This document shows positions 3,285 through 42,743 of a stretch of 64,000 nt of DNA, piece after piece. Source of the DNA: a virus (Duplodnaviria; Caudoviricetes); IMG/VR virus record IMGVR_UViG_3300021060_000040, positions 1 to 64,000 of that record. One strand, 5' to 3'. Position 1 is the first letter of the stretch. Each line of letters begins with the position of its first letter. The notes under the pieces were generated by a model that ran no database searches, was not told the origin of the DNA, and saw only the letters and a program-made list of their open reading frames with translations. The translations under genes and the position numbers were made by a program.

Positions 3285-3374
3285 TGGTGGTCCTCTTGTT
3301 GTTCAGAGAAAAATCAGCTCGCCATCGAGGGCGAGGGGGCATCGAGGTGCAGGCCGGCGTCCTAGCCGGCCGTG

Positions 3375-3557
3375 TCATTTGCCCTTGGGCTTCGGCTTGG
3401 TGCTGGCGAGCGCGGCCAGCTTCGCGGATTCGGATGCGGCGATCTTCTTGGCGGCGCCGTGCCGCTGGCGGTCCGCCTGGATTTCGGCGGCACGCTTCAG
3501 GGTGTCCAGATCGTTCTGGGCCTGCCACTTCTTCTGCTCAGCGCTGACGCGGGGCAT
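3375..3557 (-). CDS. Small basic hypothetical protein
   Basis: 60-aa ORF with GAGG RBS. Confidence 0.65.
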   Translation of the reverse strand: MPRVSAEQKKWQAQNDLDTLKRAAEIQADRQRHGAAKKIAASESAKLAALASTKPKPKGK

Positions 3558-3583
3558 TGTTTGCCTCTTGGTTGTTGATTGAC

Positions 3584-4211
3584 GGTGCCGACGTGGCAGG
3601 GGAGCGAGAGCCGCTGATCCCTATCGGTCCGGCCGGGGAGCCTAAGGCTGTGCGGTCCGGTCCTGCGCGGCCCATCCCGAGCCCAAGGGACCAGGACGCC
3701 ACGTCGATGGTGCAGACAGGGGTGGGACTCGAACCCGCCGGCGGGCGTCACGCCTTGAGACCAAACCGGGCTGCGACCCGGGATGCCCCTGTCGAAACTT
3801 CGCGTGCGTGCGCGGCGCACGAGAAGAATGAATGGCTCCACCCCGCGCTGCTTTCGCGACCAGCCGCAGGGCACCCCGTCGTTTCGGGCGCTCCGGTATG
3901 AACACGCCGATCTGGGCGCGCAGGCAGCTCGGGGAGCCGACCTGTGAATTCCTTGGGCCCGACCGCACGCGCGGCGGCCAGGCCCCCACACCCCGCCCTT
4001 CGTGTATCCCGCGTTGCGCAGGGACCGCGGCTCGAGCACGGCCGTGGTGGGATCCGAGGCCTTAGGACCTGAGCGGTCCAGAGGGGTCCACGCCTCGAAA
4101 CTTGATCGGACCGCCGCTCTCCATCCTTCCGGGTAGGAGCCGCCTCGCACGCGAGGTCGCCTCGAAAACAGCGGTCCGAGAGCCCATCCCGCCTTGGGCG
4201 GGTGGACGAGC
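3584..4211 (-). ncRNA. Candidate structured non-coding RNA region downstream of the tRNA
   Basis: No credible ORF; contiguous helices (16 bp 4106-4121/4164-4179, 12 bp 3955-3966/3974-3985, 9 bp 3589-3597/3698-3706); G.U pairs form only on the minus strand. Confidence 0.55.
3708..3793 (-). ncRNA. tRNA-like element with acceptor-like stem and T-loop but no canonical anticodon arm
   Basis: GACAGGG/CCCTGTC stem, GGG-TTCGAGT-CCC T-loop, 3' TGCACCA. Confidence 0.55.
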
Positions 4212-4286
4212 TGGTACCAAGGGCAGGATTTGAACCTGCGACCACCGGGTTATGGGTCCGGTGCTCTACCGCTGAGCTACCCTGGT
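4212..4286 (-). tRNA. tRNA with CAT anticodon (Met/fMet/Ile2), atypical
   Basis: ACCAGGG TA GCTC AGCGGTA GAGC A CCGGA CC CAT AA CCCGG TGGTC GCAGG TTCAAAT CCTGC CCTTGGT A CCA cloverleaf. Confidence 0.9.
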
Positions 4287-4291
4287 GCGGA

Positions 4292-4423
4292 TCAGGCCTG
4301 AGAGACCTGGTCCTCGTGCTGGTGCCACCTCTCCTGGCGGAGCAGCACGATGTCGTGGTGGACGACGAGGAAGATGGCCGGCGCGAAGAACATGATCGCG
4401 ACAATGGCTCCGAAGATTTCCAT
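4292..4423 (-). CDS. Small membrane protein
   Basis: 43 aa, hydrophobic N-terminus MEIFGAIVAIMFFAPAIFLVV. Confidence 0.5.
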   Translation of the reverse strand: MEIFGAIVAIMFFAPAIFLVVHHDIVLLRQERWHQHEDQVSQA

Positions 4424-4440
4424 CCGTCTATCCCTTGAAT

Positions 4441-4630
4441 TGGAACACCTATTTTGCCACGGTTTGCCGCTCTCGCGGCCTATCCCGGGTGAGCCCTTCC
4501 GGCATATCCTTGCTCTACGCCTCACGACTACTTATTCCGACCATAGTACGCCGTGCTTAGGGCACCCACATCCGCCCCGAAGGGGCCGGGGAGTCGAACC
4601 CCGCACCTGCATCTGTCGCGCCTAACCTGG
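4441..4630 (-). ncRNA. Candidate structured RNA with a T-loop hairpin
   Basis: CGGGG-TTCGACT-CCCCG hairpin (4587-4603) inside a closed stem, plus C(UUCG)G and GAGA tetraloop hairpins. Confidence 0.45.
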
Positions 4631-4749
4631 GGCATCATCGTTTTCCGGTGGTAGCGGCACCGGCTGAGGTTTCTCCTGGGGGTGGGCGTCTCGTTGCTGC
4701 TGTTCGAAAATCAGCAGCGAATTTCTGTCGGGCCCGGCTGGGGCGGCGG

Positions 4750-5031
4750 TCAGATCCGTGACCGCTTGCGGTAGAAGACCAGGCCGCGGTGGCAGAGCCA
4801 CAGGATGATGTGCCGGCCGGCCAGGTCCTCGTAGTATCGCAGCGACAGGCGGTTTCCGAACCCGAAGGCGAGGCGCCGCCCCTGCTGGATGTCGAGGCTG
4901 CCCTCGCAGATGAACTTGCCGGCCTGGCCCCCGTGCTTCCAGAGCTCGACCGACCAGAAGCTCTTGTCGATCGCCGGCTGGTTCGAGACCAGCTGCAGCA
5001 TGTTGGGCGTGTAGCGCCGGAAGAAGCGCAT
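4750..5031 (-). CDS. Hypothetical protein
   Basis: MRFFRRYTPN...; TGATG coupling to thioredoxin. Confidence 0.6.
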   Translation of the reverse strand: MRFFRRYTPNMLQLVSNQPAIDKSFWSVELWKHGGQAGKFICEGSLDIQQGRRLAFGFGNRLSLRYYEDLAGRHIILWLCHRGLVFYRKRSRI

Positions 5032-7056: not shown

Positions 7057-7150
7057 CAGACTAGAGCCGCTGTCGACAATTTTTCGACTTGCCATTTGCG
7101 CGCAAGCATGTTGCAAATTGCGCATCGCTTGTCACACCTATGGGTCGCAT

Positions 7151-7834
7151 ATGCCAAGCAACGCCGTCATCGAAGCCCGAACCGCCCCTCCGACCCAACG
7201 CGCGCGCGCAAAATCCAGGCCGACGCTCATGGCCCGCCTGGGTTCCGCGGCCACGAGGGCCCTGGAGATGCGGTTCCTGGTTTCCGCCTACAGGCTCGAG
7301 AACGTGGCCCGTCAGATCCGGGGGGAGCCGCTAACCCGCGCCCAGCGGTCCGCGGGCATCGAAAGGATCATGTACCCGGAGGATGCGAACACCATCGATC
7401 TGGTGGCAACCGACATCACTCCGGAGCAGCCCTCGGTCGAGCCGAAGGCCCAGGTGAAGGCTCCGGCCAAACCCAAGGCCCCGGCAAAGGCGAAGGCCGG
7501 CAAGCGTCCGGCGAAGGCGACCGCGAAGGAGCCGACAAAAAGGCGGAACCCGACCCGGGAAAAGGGTGCAGCTCAGATCGCTGCAGAGCTGGAGACGATC
7601 GCAACCACTCCGATATCCGCGGCGCTCGGCCGGCCCGCAGTGGGCGAGGGGACCCTTGAGGTCTGCTATCATAGTGGCTTTGTGGCCGTGAAGATCACCA
7701 GCGCCCATGGGACGATGGTCGCACCGATGATCGGATCGGAGGTCTGGTCGACGAGTGATGCCTTGATCGATCACCAGAACCGACTCGACAATGGTCGGCC
7801 CTTCCCGACCACCCCGACGTACCCGAACGACTGA
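7151..7834 (+). CDS. Hypothetical protein with Lys/Ala/Pro-rich linker
   Basis: KAPAKPKAPAKAK linker; C-terminal domain shared with previous gene. Confidence 0.65.
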   Translation: MPSNAVIEARTAPPTQRARAKSRPTLMARLGSAATRALEMRFLVSAYRLENVARQIRGEPLTRAQRSAGIERIMYPEDANTIDLVATDITPEQPSVEPKAQVKAPAKPKAPAKAKAGKRPAKATAKEPTKRRNPTREKGAAQIAAELETIATTPISAALGRPAVGEGTLEVCYHSGFVAVKITSAHGTMVAPMIGSEVWSTSDALIDHQNRLDNGRPFPTTPTYPND

Positions 7835-7884
7835 CCCCCGGTGGCCCGCGGCGCTTGGGGGCTCTCTCCCCGCGCAGCGGGCCG

Positions 7885-8088
7885 CTACAACGGGCTTCCG
7901 TGCCCGTCGCGCGGGTCGGCGAAGGTCAGCAGGCCCTCGAAGATCCGCGCGAATTCCGGCGGCTCCCAGGCGCGCTCGTCGCCCTCGTCGATCTCGAGCC
8001 AGGCGGCCCACTCGGCCGAGCGGTCGACCGGGACGATGTAGGTGTGGCCGGAATTATCCCGGCCGATGCAGTAGCGGACCTCGCTCAT
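7885..8088 (-). CDS. Hypothetical protein
   Basis: ATGA-coupled small ORF. Confidence 0.65.
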   Translation of the reverse strand: MSEVRYCIGRDNSGHTYIVPVDRSAEWAAWLEIDEGDERAWEPPEFARIFEGLLTFADPRDGHGSPL

Positions 8089-39881: not shown

Positions 39882-40204
39882 GCGACCCAGCCAGGATGCT
39901 CGCTGAGGTCGGGATTCGTCTCAACAGCTACCGGCCGGGAAACTATTACGTCACATGCCCACAGTGTTCGCACCTCAGAAAAGGCGCGAAACAAAAGATC
40001 AAATGCCTCTCCGTGAAAATCGATGAGAGGGGTGTCGTGTGGAACTGCCACAACGACCAATGCGACTTCGCCGGAGCGCGTAATGACACTGAGCACTTGG
40101 CACCTCGCCGAGCTCGAGAACCGAAGCCTGGACGTCGACGTAGCGACGCGTATGGGGATCTACAGCGGGAAGCGCGTCAAAGATGGATTGGACGACCGGG
40201 GTGA
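39878..40204 (+). CDS. Stand-alone primase zinc-binding domain
   Basis: CPQCS..RK....CLSV....VWNCH..C...G, Twinkle/gp4-type. Confidence 0.8.
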   Translation: MSDPARMLAEVGIRLNSYRPGNYYVTCPQCSHLRKGAKQKIKCLSVKIDERGVVWNCHNDQCDFAGARNDTEHLAPRRAREPKPGRRRSDAYGDLQREARQRWIGRPG

Positions 40205-42743
40205 GCCGATCTTCAAGGTCGTGCCGGACCACAACGGGACGATCCTCTGCTTCCCCTTCATCGAATGCGGCGTCGAGATCTCGACGAAATACCGCGAGAC
40301 CAAGGACGGCCGGAAGAAACTGAGCCAAACCGCCGGCCGGCCCAAGACCTTCTTCAACTGCGACGTGCTCTACGACGAGCACATCATGCAGGAGCTCGAG
40401 GACGGGATCATCGCCCTGGTGATCACCGAGGGCGAGCCGGACTGCGTGGCCTCCGTCCAGTGCGGCCACTACGCCTCGGTCTCCGTACCGAACGGCGCCC
40501 AGCTGCCGGCCCGGGACAAGAAGACCGGCAAGCTGATCGCCGTGCCGGAGGATGCCGCGGACATCGACCCCGAGGATGACGAGGCCTTCGCCTTCATCAA
40601 CCGGCACTGGGAGCGCCTGGCACGGGTCAAGCACTTCTACCTGGCCGTCGATGCGGACGAGGCCGGCCAGCGCCTGGCCAAGGAGCTGGCCCGCCGGCTC
40701 GACCCGGCGCGGTGCTTCCTGATCGATTACCCCAAGGACCCGTGCGTCGTCGCCGACCGGGAGACGGGCGAACTGCGGCCCTGCAAGGACCTCAACGAGG
40801 TGCTGCAGCACTTCGGCCCCGAAGGCGTTCAGAGCGTGCTCGGCAAGGCCCGCCCCTGGCCGGTTGCCGGCCTGTTCGCGATCGCCGACTTCCCCGACGA
40901 GGGCGAGCTCGAAACGCTGCCGATGGGACTCGACCCCGAACTCGACGAGCACATTCTGCTCTACCCGGGCGCGTTCATGGTGCTCACCGGCGTGCCCAAC
41001 ACAGGCAAGTCGGAGGTCGCCAAGCAAATCATCGTCAACATGGCGATGCGATACGGCTGGCACACGGCGATGTTCCCGGGCGAGGAGATGGTCAAGCCGT
41101 TCCTCGAGCGCTCGCTCAAGACCAAGTACCTGAGGCGGCACTATTCGGAATGGACTCCGGAGGAGAGCGCCCGAGCCGACGAATTCCTAGCCCGCCACGT
41201 CCAGGTCATCGCCCAGGATGACCGGACCGACGACGACATCACCCTCGACAAGCTGCTGAAGCTCGCCGCCACCTCCGTGTTCCGGTTCGGCACCAAGCTC
41301 CTGGTGATCGACCCCTGGAACGAGATCGAGCACGAGCGGCCGGCCCACGAGTCGCTCACCGAATATGTCGGCAAGGCCATCCGCAAGATCAAGAAATTCG
41401 CCAAGAGCTACGGCGTCTGCGTGATCGTCGTCGCCCACCCGAAGAAGGTCGAGAGCCAGCCAAACCTCTACGACATCTCGGACTGCTACTCCGAGGACAC
41501 CGAGGTCCTGACCAAACGTGGCTGGTTGCGCCACGCGGAGATCACCCTGGAGGACGAGGTGATGGGCTTCGACCCGAAGACGGATAACCTCGACTGGGCC
41601 CGCCCCAGCCGCGTGGCGAGCTTCGACCATGACGGCGAGATGGTCCGGTTCCAGGGCTACGGCTACGACCTCTTGGTCAGCCCCAACCACCGCATGGTGG
41701 TGAAGCCGGCCTGGAAGGATCCGAAGGGGACGCAGGCAGAGAACGGCCTCGGCCGTCCGACCAAGTACCCGAAGGACCAGTGGTCGTTCACTACGGCCCG
41801 CGAGATCGGCAGCGGCAACTTCATCATGCCCAAGGCCGGCATGGCGGTACCCGGCGACGATCCGGAGACGCTGCTGATCGACGGCAAGATCTTCCCGGCG
41901 GCACCGTTCGCGGAGCTGGTGGGCTGGTATCTGGCCGAAGGCTCCTGGCAGAGCTCCGGCCTGAGCCTCTGCCAGGCGGCTGGTGAGAAGGCCGACCACA
42001 TCGACGGCCTGATCGTAGCCTGCGGTCTGTCGGCGACCCGAGCCGAACGTCCGGACCCGCGCGGGTTCCAGACTATGGTGACTTGGTACTTCGGCGCCCG
42101 GACCAACCCGGAACTCGTACGCTGGATCCGGGATAAGGCCGGCCGTGGCTCGAGTGAGAAGCGGGTGCCCTACCCGTTCTTCGCGATGAGCGCCCGGCTG
42201 AAGGCTGCGCTATTACAAGGCTACATCGACGGCGATGGGCACCGCCCGACGGCCCGCGATGGCATCGTCGCAACGACCACGTCCAAGCAGCTGAGCGACG
42301 ACCTGATGCGGATTGCGGTCGAGATCGGAACCCCGGTCACCGGCCACGAGCGGACGCCAGCCAACCCGGACCACGCGGTCCAGTACCAGATCAACTTCGG
42401 CCGGGAGGCGCGCCGGCAGGTGGCGCTGCGCGGCGCCCGCAACAGCTCGATCGAGCTCTACTCGGGCAAGATCTGGTGTCTGACCATGCCGACCGGGGCG
42501 TACGTCGTGCGCAGGAATGGCAAGGTGACGATCTGCGGAAACTCGGCCCACTGGTACAACAAGGCCGACCTGTCCCTGATCATCGATACCGACGATCCGC
42601 TCGGCGTGATCCGGGACTTCATCATTCCGAAGATCCGGTTCGTCGGGATCACCGGCAAGAAGGGCAAGGTCCAGCTCCGGTTCAACACCCGGCTTCAGAT
42701 GTACGAGCCGATGGCAGCCCTCGCCGCGGCCGCACCGTTTTGA
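40083..42743 (+). CDS. Twinkle/T7 gp4-like TOPRIM primase-helicase with intein
   Basis: ITEGEPD, DADEAG, KDLNE; Walker A GVPNTGKS, LVIDPW, VAHPKK, YDIS/SAHWYNKAD. Confidence 0.92.
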   Translation: MTLSTWHLAELENRSLDVDVATRMGIYSGKRVKDGLDDRGEPIFKVVPDHNGTILCFPFIECGVEISTKYRETKDGRKKLSQTAGRPKTFFNCDVLYDEHIMQELEDGIIALVITEGEPDCVASVQCGHYASVSVPNGAQLPARDKKTGKLIAVPEDAADIDPEDDEAFAFINRHWERLARVKHFYLAVDADEAGQRLAKELARRLDPARCFLIDYPKDPCVVADRETGELRPCKDLNEVLQHFGPEGVQSVLGKARPWPVAGLFAIADFPDEGELETLPMGLDPELDEHILLYPGAFMVLTGVPNTGKSEVAKQIIVNMAMRYGWHTAMFPGEEMVKPFLERSLKTKYLRRHYSEWTPEESARADEFLARHVQVIAQDDRTDDDITLDKLLKLAATSVFRFGTKLLVIDPWNEIEHERPAHESLTEYVGKAIRKIKKFAKSYGVCVIVVAHPKKVESQPNLYDISDCYSEDTEVLTKRGWLRHAEITLEDEVMGFDPKTDNLDWARPSRVASFDHDGEMVRFQGYGYDLLVSPNHRMVVKPAWKDPKGTQAENGLGRPTKYPKDQWSFTTAREIGSGNFIMPKAGMAVPGDDPETLLIDGKIFPAAPFAELVGWYLAEGSWQSSGLSLCQAAGEKADHIDGLIVACGLSATRAERPDPRGFQTMVTWYFGARTNPELVRWIRDKAGRGSSEKRVPYPFFAMSARLKAALLQGYIDGDGHRPTARDGIVATTTSKQLSDDLMRIAVEIGTPVTGHERTPANPDHAVQYQINFGREARRQVALRGARNSSIELYSGKIWCLTMPTGAYVVRRNGKVTICGNSAHWYNKADLSLIIDTDDPLGVIRDFIIPKIRFVGITGKKGKVQLRFNTRLQMYEPMAALAAAAPF
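41484..42542 (+). mobile_element. Intein with LAGLIDADG homing endonuclease (353 aa)
   Basis: Starts CYSEDTEVLT, block B VSPNHRM, LVGWYLAEG and LLQGYIDGDG, ends ICGN followed by S. Confidence 0.93.

What the first reader, a model, noticed from the sequence alone, without database searches (positions are those of the whole stretch)
3794..4211. About 420-nt highly structured non-coding RNA directly 3' of the tRNA
Seen: on the minus strand, the sequence from the tRNA CCA to the tRNA-like element is nearly continuous helices. These include a 16-bp stem (4106-4121/4164-4179, three G.U) closing a three-way junction, a 12-bp stem (3955-3966/3974-3985, two G.U), CGAGGC/GCCTCG enclosing GGACC/GGTCC, and GAAA-containing loops. 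The wobbles would be A.C mismatches on the plus strand, which favours selection on the RNA. There is no credible ORF. Known: large ornate phage ncRNAs such as GOLLD and ROOL often lie beside tRNA genes. Inference: this is an ncRNA, or a set of ncRNAs, released by tRNA processing. I cannot assign a family. High GC inflates chance hairpins.
Basis: partly seen in the sequence, partly recalled or inferred. Interest (0 to 1): 0.8.

Follow-up and report, generated by a model that had tools for sequence, protein, structure and literature searches.

The report
Fast-evolving spacer in phage tRNA cluster
The 418 bases after this phage's tRNA gene are non-coding, but only the first 112 fold better than chance, nothing like them occurs in any related phage, and they are most likely a fast-changing spacer carrying two processing hairpins rather than a large ornate RNA.

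Summary
The window is the first 64 kb of a 118-kb, 65% GC provirus. Its nearest cultured relative is Bradyrhizobium phage BDU-MI-1.

- **Non-coding.** Window 3794-4211 (minus strand) shows no codon periodicity. The 217-aa ORF that a public gene caller placed here has no homolog.
- **Setting.** It lies between tRNA-Met(CAT) and a decayed tRNA-like element, on the same strand as the flanking genes.
- **Helices.** Only the 112 nt next to the tRNA (4100-4211: an 11-bp hairpin and a bent hairpin closed by a 16-bp stem) fold beyond chance. Their z is about -4.2 on the minus strand and -1.5 on the plus strand.
- **Remainder.** The other 307 nt fold like shuffled sequence (z -0.5).
- **Family and relatives.** No Rfam family matches, including GOLLD and ROOL. 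No tRNA remnant is detectable, and there is no DNA match in phage, plasmid, viral, metagenome or genome collections.
- **Nearest relative.** Its neighbouring protein is about 82% identical, but it has unrelated, unstructured sequence in the same slot.
- **BDU-MI-1-like phages.** These hold a different, conserved 85-nt pseudoknotted motif in that slot. The motif is absent from this genome.

Verdict: a lineage-specific spacer in a decaying tRNA cluster, with probable processing or stability hairpins at its 5' end. Interest is low. The conserved 85-nt motif seen in the relatives is the more promising lead.

The parts
4292..4423 (-). Small real ORF (43 aa, hydrophobic) ending 5 nt before the tRNA. 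It shows that the tRNA and spacer sit inside a co-directional gene array.
   Evidence: Strong codon-position GC periodicity, third-position GC about 0.9. Called as a gene on the public contig. No Pfam match.
4212..4286 (-). tRNA-Met(CAT) with encoded CCA. This is the 5' boundary of the finding.
   Evidence: ARAGORN. Rfam RF00005, 66 bits. About 80% identical to the tRNA-Met of Bradyrhizobium phage BDU-MI-1 and of IMG/VR record G001.
4182..4207 (-). Hairpin 1: an 11-bp GC-rich stem with one bulge and a CAA loop, starting 4 nt after the tRNA CCA.
   Evidence: The fold of 4181-4211 gives -19.5 kcal/mol, z -3.35, 0 of 200 shuffles as good. The plus strand gives z -2.0. Same structure.
4106..4179 (-). 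Bent hairpin or small three-way junction. A 16-bp closing stem (three G.U) is followed by a 10-bp interrupted hairpin and a 2-bp side stem.
   Evidence: Inverted repeat I4. The fold of 4100-4185 gives z -3.2 on the minus strand and -1.45 on the plus strand. With hairpin 1, the best fold makes up 44% of the ensemble. One of only 4 stems of 16 bp or more in 118 kb.
3794..4099 (-). The remaining 306 nt of spacer. It has GC-rich hairpins, including the 12-bp stem at 3955-3985, but overall its folding is ordinary.
   Evidence: z -0.5 for 3794-4100. Sub-pieces range from z -0.1 to -2.1. No Rfam, tRNA-like or R1 match. No coding signal.
3711..3795 (-). This is the 3' boundary of the finding.
   Evidence: Model R2, built from the tRNA(CCA)-like genes of BDU-MI-1-like phages, scores 17.6 bits, E 6e-4. 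Acceptor and T arm are kept and the anticodon arm is replaced by a 27-nt insert. nhmmer aligns a GGTCTC..AA remnant of the anticodon loop, E 0.05. Not called by ARAGORN.

Best explanation
Window 3794-4211 is a lineage-specific, non-coding spacer inside a co-transcribed phage cluster of tRNA and tRNA-like genes. The order on the minus strand is: 43-aa ORF, tRNA-Met(CAT), spacer, decayed tRNA(CCA)-like element, a second tRNA-like element, then the next protein genes. It is not a conserved large ncRNA.

The 112 nt next to the tRNA form two stable, strand-specific hairpins. One is an 11-bp stem starting 4 nt after the CCA. The other is a bent duplex of about 26 bp closed by the 16-bp stem. These most likely act in cis on the precursor transcript, either as an endonuclease entry site (of the RNase III or RNase E kind) or as a 3' protective or pausing structure. 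Such a site would separate the tRNA from the downstream RNA.

The other roughly 300 nt are probably neutral filler, left by insertions and decay in a slot that turns over quickly in this phage group.

- **Shown:** the stretch is non-coding, the fold statistics, the absence of homologs, and the different content of the slot in relatives.
- **Inferred:** co-transcription, processing, and the role of the hairpins.
For: - **Non-coding.** There is no codon periodicity. The ORF called at 3497-4150 has no homolog among 1.84 billion representative proteins and matches no Pfam or PHROG family.
- **Folding.** Only 4100-4211 is exceptional, and only on the gene strand. 3794-4100 has z -0.5. The region is not an outlier in the genome-wide scan.
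- **Nearest relative.** The only relatives of the neighbouring protein P0002 (79-82% identical) are three short Logan contigs. In L002 the positionally equivalent 457 nt are also non-coding. They share no similarity with the finding and fold like shuffles, z -0.7.
- **Wider clade.** In the BDU-MI-1 clade the slot between tRNA-Met and the tRNA(CCA)-like gene is about 95 nt and holds a conserved motif, R1. Some members carry extra, unrelated hairpin inserts right after the tRNA (L119, L133). The slot therefore tolerates insertions.
- **Decaying cluster.** Model R2 recognises module A as a degraded tRNA(CCA)-like gene.
- **Spacer length.** The genome's other tRNA cluster (Leu, Ser, Ser, Phe at 115.2-116.6 kb) has spacers of 1 and 43 nt between the first three genes.
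- **Transcription signals.** No sigma-70-like promoter was found, and no terminator-like site lies inside 3794-4211 on the minus strand. This fits read-through transcription.
Against: - Absence of homologs is weak evidence. The phage lineage is barely sampled: three short contigs, none reaching further upstream.
- The 112-nt element is well defined, and its G.U pairs favour the RNA strand. It could therefore be a small functional RNA in its own right.
- No transcript, processing or cleavage data exist.
- The RNase III or RNase E role rests only on the shape of the duplex.
- Shuffle-based z-scores can miss real structures that are no more stable than random GC-rich sequence.
Confidence: 0.55

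Rival explanations
1. An orphan, lineage-specific structured ncRNA, either the 112-nt element or the whole 418 nt. It would be cut out of the precursor by RNase P and tRNA 3'-end processing and would act in trans, for example as a decoy or regulator. It would fill the slot where related phages carry the R1 motif.
For: - 4100-4211 folds with z -4.1 to -4.4 on the gene strand only, and one structure dominates the ensemble.
- The 16-bp stem is rare in the genome.
- The slot holds a conserved structured RNA in the wider phage group.
- GOLLD and ROOL show that phage ncRNAs cluster with tRNAs (PMC5737381).
Against: - There is no homolog anywhere.
- The nearest relative has unrelated, unstructured sequence in the slot.
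- Three quarters of the stretch folds like shuffles.
- No Rfam match.
- A two-hairpin element has no junctions or pseudoknots of the sort seen in ornate RNAs.
Confidence: 0.17
2. The spacer is what remains of one or more further tRNA genes of a formerly longer array, decayed beyond recognition.
For: - Module A, and in L002 a tRNA(CAT)-like gene with an insert of about 70 nt, show that tRNA genes in this cluster are decaying or being remodelled.
- A third, isolated T-arm lies upstream at 4588-4602.
Against: - ARAGORN finds nothing inside 3794-4211.
- The Rfam tRNA clan at E<=10 finds nothing there.
- R2 with filters off finds nothing there; the best score is 4.1 bits, E 2.
- No T-loop or anticodon-loop motif is visible.
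Confidence: 0.1
3. The spacer is the remnant of a lost protein gene (a moron) or of a small mobile element inserted between the two tRNA-type genes.
For: - The slot differs between close relatives, as moron sites do.
- Weak inverted repeats link 3797-3817 with 4141-4157.
- A gene caller did call a 217-aa ORF here.
Against: - No codon periodicity.
- No protein homolog.
- No second copy in the phage genome.
- No match in plasmids or phages.
- No target-site duplication was recognised.
Confidence: 0.1
4. It is a cis-regulatory leader (attenuator, antiterminator or 5' UTR) that controls the downstream genes P0003 and P0002.
For: - Same strand as, and upstream of, the next genes.
- Stable hairpins are present.
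- The R1 motif of related phages also sits directly upstream of genes.
Against: - Two tRNA-like elements (about 210 nt) lie between it and the next start codon.
- No terminator-like hairpin with a U-tract lies inside it.
- It is not conserved in L002, although the downstream genes are.
Confidence: 0.06

Closest known systems
Spacers and extra stable RNAs in phage tRNA operons, for example the T4 tRNA cluster with its two small stable RNAs (from my own knowledge, not checked here)
   Same: Non-coding RNA segments co-transcribed with phage tRNAs and set free by tRNA-end processing. Hairpins next to tRNA 3' ends.
   Different: No evidence here for a stable product. There is no sequence relation, and the segment is much longer than the usual spacer. 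The same genome's other tRNA cluster has spacers of 1 and 43 nt between its first three genes.
GOLLD (RF01998) and ROOL (RF03087) large ornate RNAs
   Same: Genomic setting: in a prophage and next to a tRNA, as described for both families (PMC5737381).
   Different: No match to either covariance model, even at E<=10. The length is 418 nt against about 580-800 nt. There are no multistem junctions or pseudoknots with support, no homologs, and most of the stretch folds like random sequence.
R1 motif of BDU-MI-1-like phages. This is an unnamed, roughly 85-nt pseudoknotted motif found here; it is not in Rfam 15.
   Same: It occupies the same slot, between tRNA-Met(CAT) and the tRNA(CCA)-like gene, on the same strand.
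   Different: The window has no R1. cmsearch with filters off gives no minus-strand hit better than E 1.4. There is none in the whole 118-kb record, and nhmmer aligns only the tRNA-like part. R1 is about 85 nt and conserved across some 20 distinct viral contigs, whereas this spacer is 418 nt and unique.
RNase III processing hairpins in phage polycistronic transcripts, for example the T7 early region (from my own knowledge)
   Same: A long, slightly interrupted duplex of about 26 bp (16 + 10) between two functional units of one transcript.
   Different: Cleavage has not been tested. There is no sequence relation, and the host's RNase III specificity is unknown.

Membership tests
GOLLD (RF01998) / ROOL (RF03087) | Match to the family covariance model at or near its gathering score | tested here: not met
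   cmscan over the whole window at gathering thresholds, and over 3300-4800 at E<=10, lists neither family.
GOLLD (RF01998) / ROOL (RF03087) | A large, conserved, multi-junction fold with pseudoknots, supported by covariation | tested here: not met
   There are no homologs to test covariation. 3794-4100 folds like shuffles, z -0.5. Only a two-hairpin element is well defined.
GOLLD (RF01998) / ROOL (RF03087) | Located in prophages, often next to tRNA genes | tested here: met
   The record is a provirus and a tRNA lies directly 5'. The context feature is as described in PMC5737381.
tRNA or tRNA pseudogene | Cloverleaf, or at least acceptor plus T arm, detectable by tRNA models | tested here: not met
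   Nothing inside 3794-4211 from ARAGORN, the Rfam tRNA clan at E<=10, or R2 with filters off, whose best score is 4.1 bits, E 2. The flanks do match (4212-4288 and 3711-3795).
R1 motif of BDU-MI-1-like phages | Match to model R1 (GNRA hairpin, ACGC/GCGU stem, CCCGA/UCGGG stem enclosing the CGAC-U-GGN hairpin, GAAGAAA) | tested here: not met
   The window's best minus-strand hit is 2.9 bits, E 1.4, and lies in module A rather than in the spacer. There is no match in the whole record. The positive control L081 scores 90 bits.
Protein-coding gene | Codon-position GC periodicity typical of this genome, and homologs | tested here: not met
   The spread across codon positions is at most 0.20, against 0.4-0.7 in real genes. 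No Pfam or PHROG match. The 217-aa ORF matches only itself among 1.84 billion representatives.
Intrinsic terminator | GC-rich stem-loop directly followed by a U-tract | tested here: not met
   The scan finds no terminator-like site on the minus strand inside 3794-4211. The nearest is inside module A at 3781-3766.
RNase III-type processing hairpin | A near-continuous duplex of about 20 bp or more within a polycistronic transcript | tested here: met
   A 16-bp stem stacked on a 10-bp interrupted hairpin, 4106-4179. The duplex is predicted only.
RNase III-type processing hairpin | Cleavage by RNase III in vivo or in vitro | not testable with these tools
   This needs an enzyme assay or end-mapping of transcripts.

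The most novel reading that the evidence does not exclude
The 112 nt next to the tRNA (4100-4211), alone or with the rest of the spacer, could be an orphan phage ncRNA. It would be excised by tRNA-processing enzymes, and in this lineage it would have replaced the conserved R1 motif that related Bradyrhizobium-type phages carry in the same slot. In that case the slot between tRNA-Met and the tRNA(CCA)-like gene would be a site where different small structured RNAs are exchanged.
Probability: 0.12. Interest if true: 0.5.

Novelty: new member of a known kind. Interest (0 to 1): 0.2.

Why it matters
As first stated, a large ornate ncRNA beside a phage tRNA would have been a notable find. The evidence does not support that, so the region should not be listed as a candidate of the GOLLD or ROOL class.

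Three things remain useful.
- The public gene call over this region (217 aa) is spurious.
- The region shows a tRNA cluster in decay. One tRNA is intact, at least one element (module A) is a degraded tRNA-type gene, a second tRNA-like element follows it, and the spacer turns over quickly.
- Following the relatives turned up a conserved, pseudoknotted 85-nt RNA motif. In most members it is followed by an unusual tRNA-like gene. It occurs in Bradyrhizobium phage BDU-MI-1 and about 20 viral contigs, is absent from Rfam, and deserves its own study.

Tried and rejected
1. **Known RNA family.** Rfam at gathering thresholds and at E<=10 gave only the tRNA, a weak tRNA-Sec-like hit on module A and noise.
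2. **Close relatives by protein.**
   - P0002 found 2 homologs on 3 short Logan contigs.
   - P0003 and the 93-aa upstream protein found only themselves.
   - Scans of viral, metagenome and genome contigs with P0002, or with its alignment, found nothing.
3. **Relatives by DNA.**
   - An exact 25-mer from the spacer found nothing in viral contigs.
   - The tRNA 3' half found nothing in viral, metagenome or genome contigs.
   - blastn against phages and plasmids gave no match.
   - Searches of 10 related viral records found only the tRNA.
4. **Ends of the spacer as remnants of R1.** By eye, the GCC-CAA-GGC hairpin after the CCA and the GGGG..GCCATTC before module A looked like R1 ends. Neither cmsearch nor nhmmer supports this, so I dropped the idea.
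5. **Repeated motifs as processing signals.** AGTTTCGA and TTTCGAGGCG occur no more often than chance.
6. **Decayed gene.** No periodicity and no homologs.
7. **Structure conserved without sequence.** L002's equivalent 457 nt fold like shuffles.
8. **Host origin or MITE.** This could not be tested against host genomes, because no bacterial genome handle could be obtained. The plasmid collection gave nothing.
9. **Earlier notes of this scan.** Searches by sequence and by relatives found nothing similar on other DNA.

Full report
**Context**

The window is the first 64 kb of a 118,226-bp IMG/VR provirus record of about 65% GC. It encodes an integrase at its left end, a primase-helicase, a class II ribonucleotide reductase and NAD salvage enzymes. 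The nearest cultured relative is Bradyrhizobium phage BDU-MI-1, 121 kb. It gave the top-listed of the short tRNA-only hits in the phage blastn, and its primase is 46% identical.

The genes around the finding run on the minus strand, in this order:
- thioredoxin (5348-5031)
- a 93-aa protein (5031-4750)
- about 215 nt of non-coding sequence with an isolated T-arm
- a 43-aa hydrophobic ORF (4423-4292)
- tRNA-Met(CAT) (4286-4212)
- the finding (4211-3794)
- a tRNA-like element (3795-3711)
- a second closed stem element (3707-3584)
- P0003 (3557-3375) and P0002 (3284-2844)

The region is non-coding. A plot of GC by codon position shows a spread of at most 0.20 from 4290 to 3560. The flanking genes and the 43-aa ORF show 0.4-0.7. 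The public contig carries a 217-aa gene call over 4150-3497. That ORF runs through both tRNA-like elements, matches no Pfam or PHROG family, and matches only itself among 1.84 billion representative proteins. It is spurious.

Their significance is uneven.

| Segment | z, minus strand | z, plus strand |
|---|---|---|
| Whole 418 nt | -1.85 to -2.3 | -0.8 |
| 4100-4211 | -4.1 to -4.4 | -1.5 |
| 3794-4100 | -0.5 | -0.8 |
| 12-bp hairpin (3950-3990) | -2.0 | -0.7 |
| CGAGGC hairpin (4046-4100) | -1.4 | -1.3 |

- For 4100-4211, at most 1 of 200 shuffles folds as well, and the best structure makes up 44% of the ensemble.
- A scan of the whole genome with fixed 112-nt windows finds no outlier over the region. 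That grid does not line up with the element's own boundaries.
- Uninterrupted stems of 16 bp or more occur four times in 118 kb, against about 1.3 expected. The stem at 4179 is one of two with three or fewer G.U pairs.

There is a well-defined two-hairpin element of 112 nt next to the tRNA, followed by about 300 nt of ordinary GC-rich sequence.

**What it is not**

- *A known RNA family.* Rfam 15 gives only the tRNA at gathering thresholds. At E<=10 it adds only a 20-bit tRNA-Sec-like hit on the flanking tRNA-like element and noise. GOLLD, ROOL, group I and II introns and tmRNA are all absent.
- *A tRNA remnant.* ARAGORN and my model R2 with filters off find nothing inside the spacer.
- *A repeat.* There is no second copy in the phage genome.

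**Relatives**

The lineage is barely sampled. P0002 has two homologs (79-82% identity) on three short Logan contigs. P0003 and the 93-aa protein have none. Scans of viral, metagenome and genome contigs with proteins, an exact spacer 25-mer and the tRNA 3' half found nothing. blastn of the spacer against phages and plasmids found nothing either.

In contig L002 the 720 nt upstream of the P0003 homolog are also non-coding. The only significant similarity to the window's non-coding stretch is 43 nt, the T-arm and acceptor of the tRNA-like element. The 457 nt that sit where the finding sits have no significant similarity to it. They fold like shuffles, z -0.7.

L002 and L004 also carry a tRNA(CAT)-like gene with an insert of about 70 nt after the anticodon arm. 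One hairpin of that insert shows a compensatory C-G to G-C change between the two contigs.

**The wider clade**

In BDU-MI-1 the tRNA-Met is followed, after about 95 nt, by a gene annotated tRNA-Pseudo-CCA. A 21-mer and a 16-mer from that spacer hit 12 and 51 IMG/VR stretches. About 20 distinct sequences share a conserved motif of roughly 85 nt, which I call R1. Rfam does not know it at E<=1.

R1 has these parts:
- a GNRA-capped hairpin
- a 4-bp stem ACGC/GCGU whose loop pairs with the 3' tail
- a CCCGA/UCGGG stem enclosing a CGAC-U-GGN hairpin
- an invariant GAAGAAA

The loop-tail pairing covaries: CCCC with GGGG, UGCC with GGCA, GGCC with GGCC. The mean duplex length is 4.53 against 3.98 when tails are shuffled among sequences, and 8 of 2000 shuffles reach the observed value.

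In 13 of the 21 contigs carrying R1, it is followed by a tRNA-like gene with anticodon loop CUCCAAA, a 9-bp acceptor stem and a 4-bp T stem. Twelve of its pairs covary.

Model R1 finds nothing in the window, in the whole record or in L002-L005. A positive control scores 90 bits. nhmmer with R1 plus the tRNA-like gene aligns only the tRNA-like part, to the tRNA-Met and to 3711-3795. Model R2 scores 3711-3795 at 17.6 bits, E 6e-4, with the anticodon arm replaced by an insert.

So the window's lineage kept the tRNA-Met, has a degraded tRNA(CCA)-like gene, lacks R1, and has 418 nt of unique sequence in the slot. Other clade members (L119, L133) have unrelated hairpin inserts of 60-70 nt between tRNA-Met and R1. 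The slot therefore accepts insertions.

**Most likely mechanism**

- *Inferred.* The ORFs, the tRNA, the spacer and the tRNA-like elements are tightly packed on one strand. There is no promoter-like site, and no terminator-like site lies inside the spacer. They are probably one transcript.
- *Inferred.* tRNA 3'-end processing, and RNase P if it still recognises the degraded element, would free the spacer as a by-product.
- *Shown.* Only the first 112 nt carry a structure beyond chance, and only on the RNA strand.
- *Inferred.* Its shape is a hairpin starting 4 nt after the CCA, then a bent duplex of about 26 bp. This fits a cis-acting processing, pausing or protective element better than a trans-acting ornate RNA.
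- *Inferred.* The rest is probably neutral.

I put this reading at 0.55. The rivals are:
- an orphan functional ncRNA, 0.17
- unrecognisable tRNA remnants, 0.10
- a remnant of a lost gene or mobile element, 0.10
- a leader for the downstream genes, 0.06

**Novelty and verdict**

The finding is a new instance of a known kind, a spacer with hairpins in a phage tRNA cluster. It is not a member of any ornate ncRNA family. Interest is low, at 0.2. The R1 motif and its partner tRNA-like gene, seen only in relatives, are the more interesting by-product and are listed under things noticed in passing.

Noticed in passing
Not in the window. Loci L089 (KY940711.1, about 88,495-88,588, minus strand), L090-L102, L114, L117-L120, L123, L126, L133, L137 and L150; for example L097:12155-12243:+: A conserved RNA motif of about 85 nt (my model R1) occurs in Bradyrhizobium phage BDU-MI-1 and about 20 distinct IMG/VR contigs. 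Rfam 15 has no match at E<=1. It has a GNRA hairpin, an ACGC/GCGU stem, a CCCGA/UCGGG stem around a CGAC-U-GGN hairpin, an invariant GAAGAAA, and a pseudoknot between the second stem's loop and the 3' tail that covaries (CCCC/GGGG, UGCC/GGCA, GGCC/GGCC). In most members it is followed by a tRNA(CCA)-like gene, usually with tRNA-Met just upstream (some members have no tRNA upstream); in others it stands alone, in some of them 20-45 nt upstream of a start codon. It could be a cis-regulatory or processing RNA..
   Followed up: partly
Not in the window. For example L089:2835-2909:-, L097:12247-12321:+, L099:12452-12527:+: A tRNA-like gene follows R1. It has anticodon loop CUCCAAA (CCA, Trp-like), a 9-bp acceptor stem and a 4-bp T stem, so only CA stays unpaired at the 3' end. 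Twelve pairs covary among 11 sequences, so it is under selection, although GenBank annotates it as tRNA-Pseudo-CCA and ARAGORN does not call it.
   Followed up: partly
L002:547-693 (+) and L004:1-91 (+): A tRNA(CAT)-like gene has intact acceptor, D and T arms but an insert of about 70 nt after the anticodon arm. One 7-bp hairpin of the insert shows a compensatory C-G to G-C change between the two contigs. ARAGORN does not call it.
   Followed up: partly
window 3497-4150 (-): The public contig carries a 217-aa gene call that runs through the spacer and both tRNA-like elements. It has no codon periodicity and no homolog, and is a false gene call.
   Followed up: yes
G000:C1:115239-116646 (outside the window), minus strand: A second, compact tRNA cluster holds tRNA-Leu(CAG), tRNA-Ser(GCT), tRNA-Ser(CGA) and, about 1 kb further on, tRNA-Phe(GAA). 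The spacers between the first three genes are 43 and 1 nt, unlike the 418-nt spacer of the finding.
   Followed up: partly
window 4588-4602 (-): An isolated perfect T-arm (GGGG-UUCGACU-CCCC) lies in the 215-nt non-coding stretch upstream of the 43-aa ORF, with no acceptor partner recognised by R2. It is probably another tRNA fragment.
   Followed up: partly
window 40023-42743 (+): The primase-helicase (Toprim plus DnaB-like) carries a LAGLIDADG domain at residues 727-792. This suggests an intein or a fused homing endonuclease.
   Followed up: no
window 7841-7952 (both strands): This is the most stable 112-nt window of the whole genome relative to its composition: z -5.6 on the plus strand and -3.9 on the minus strand. 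It lies at the junction of convergent ORFs (7118-7834 on the plus strand, 7885-8088 on the minus strand) and is probably a bidirectional terminator.
   Followed up: no
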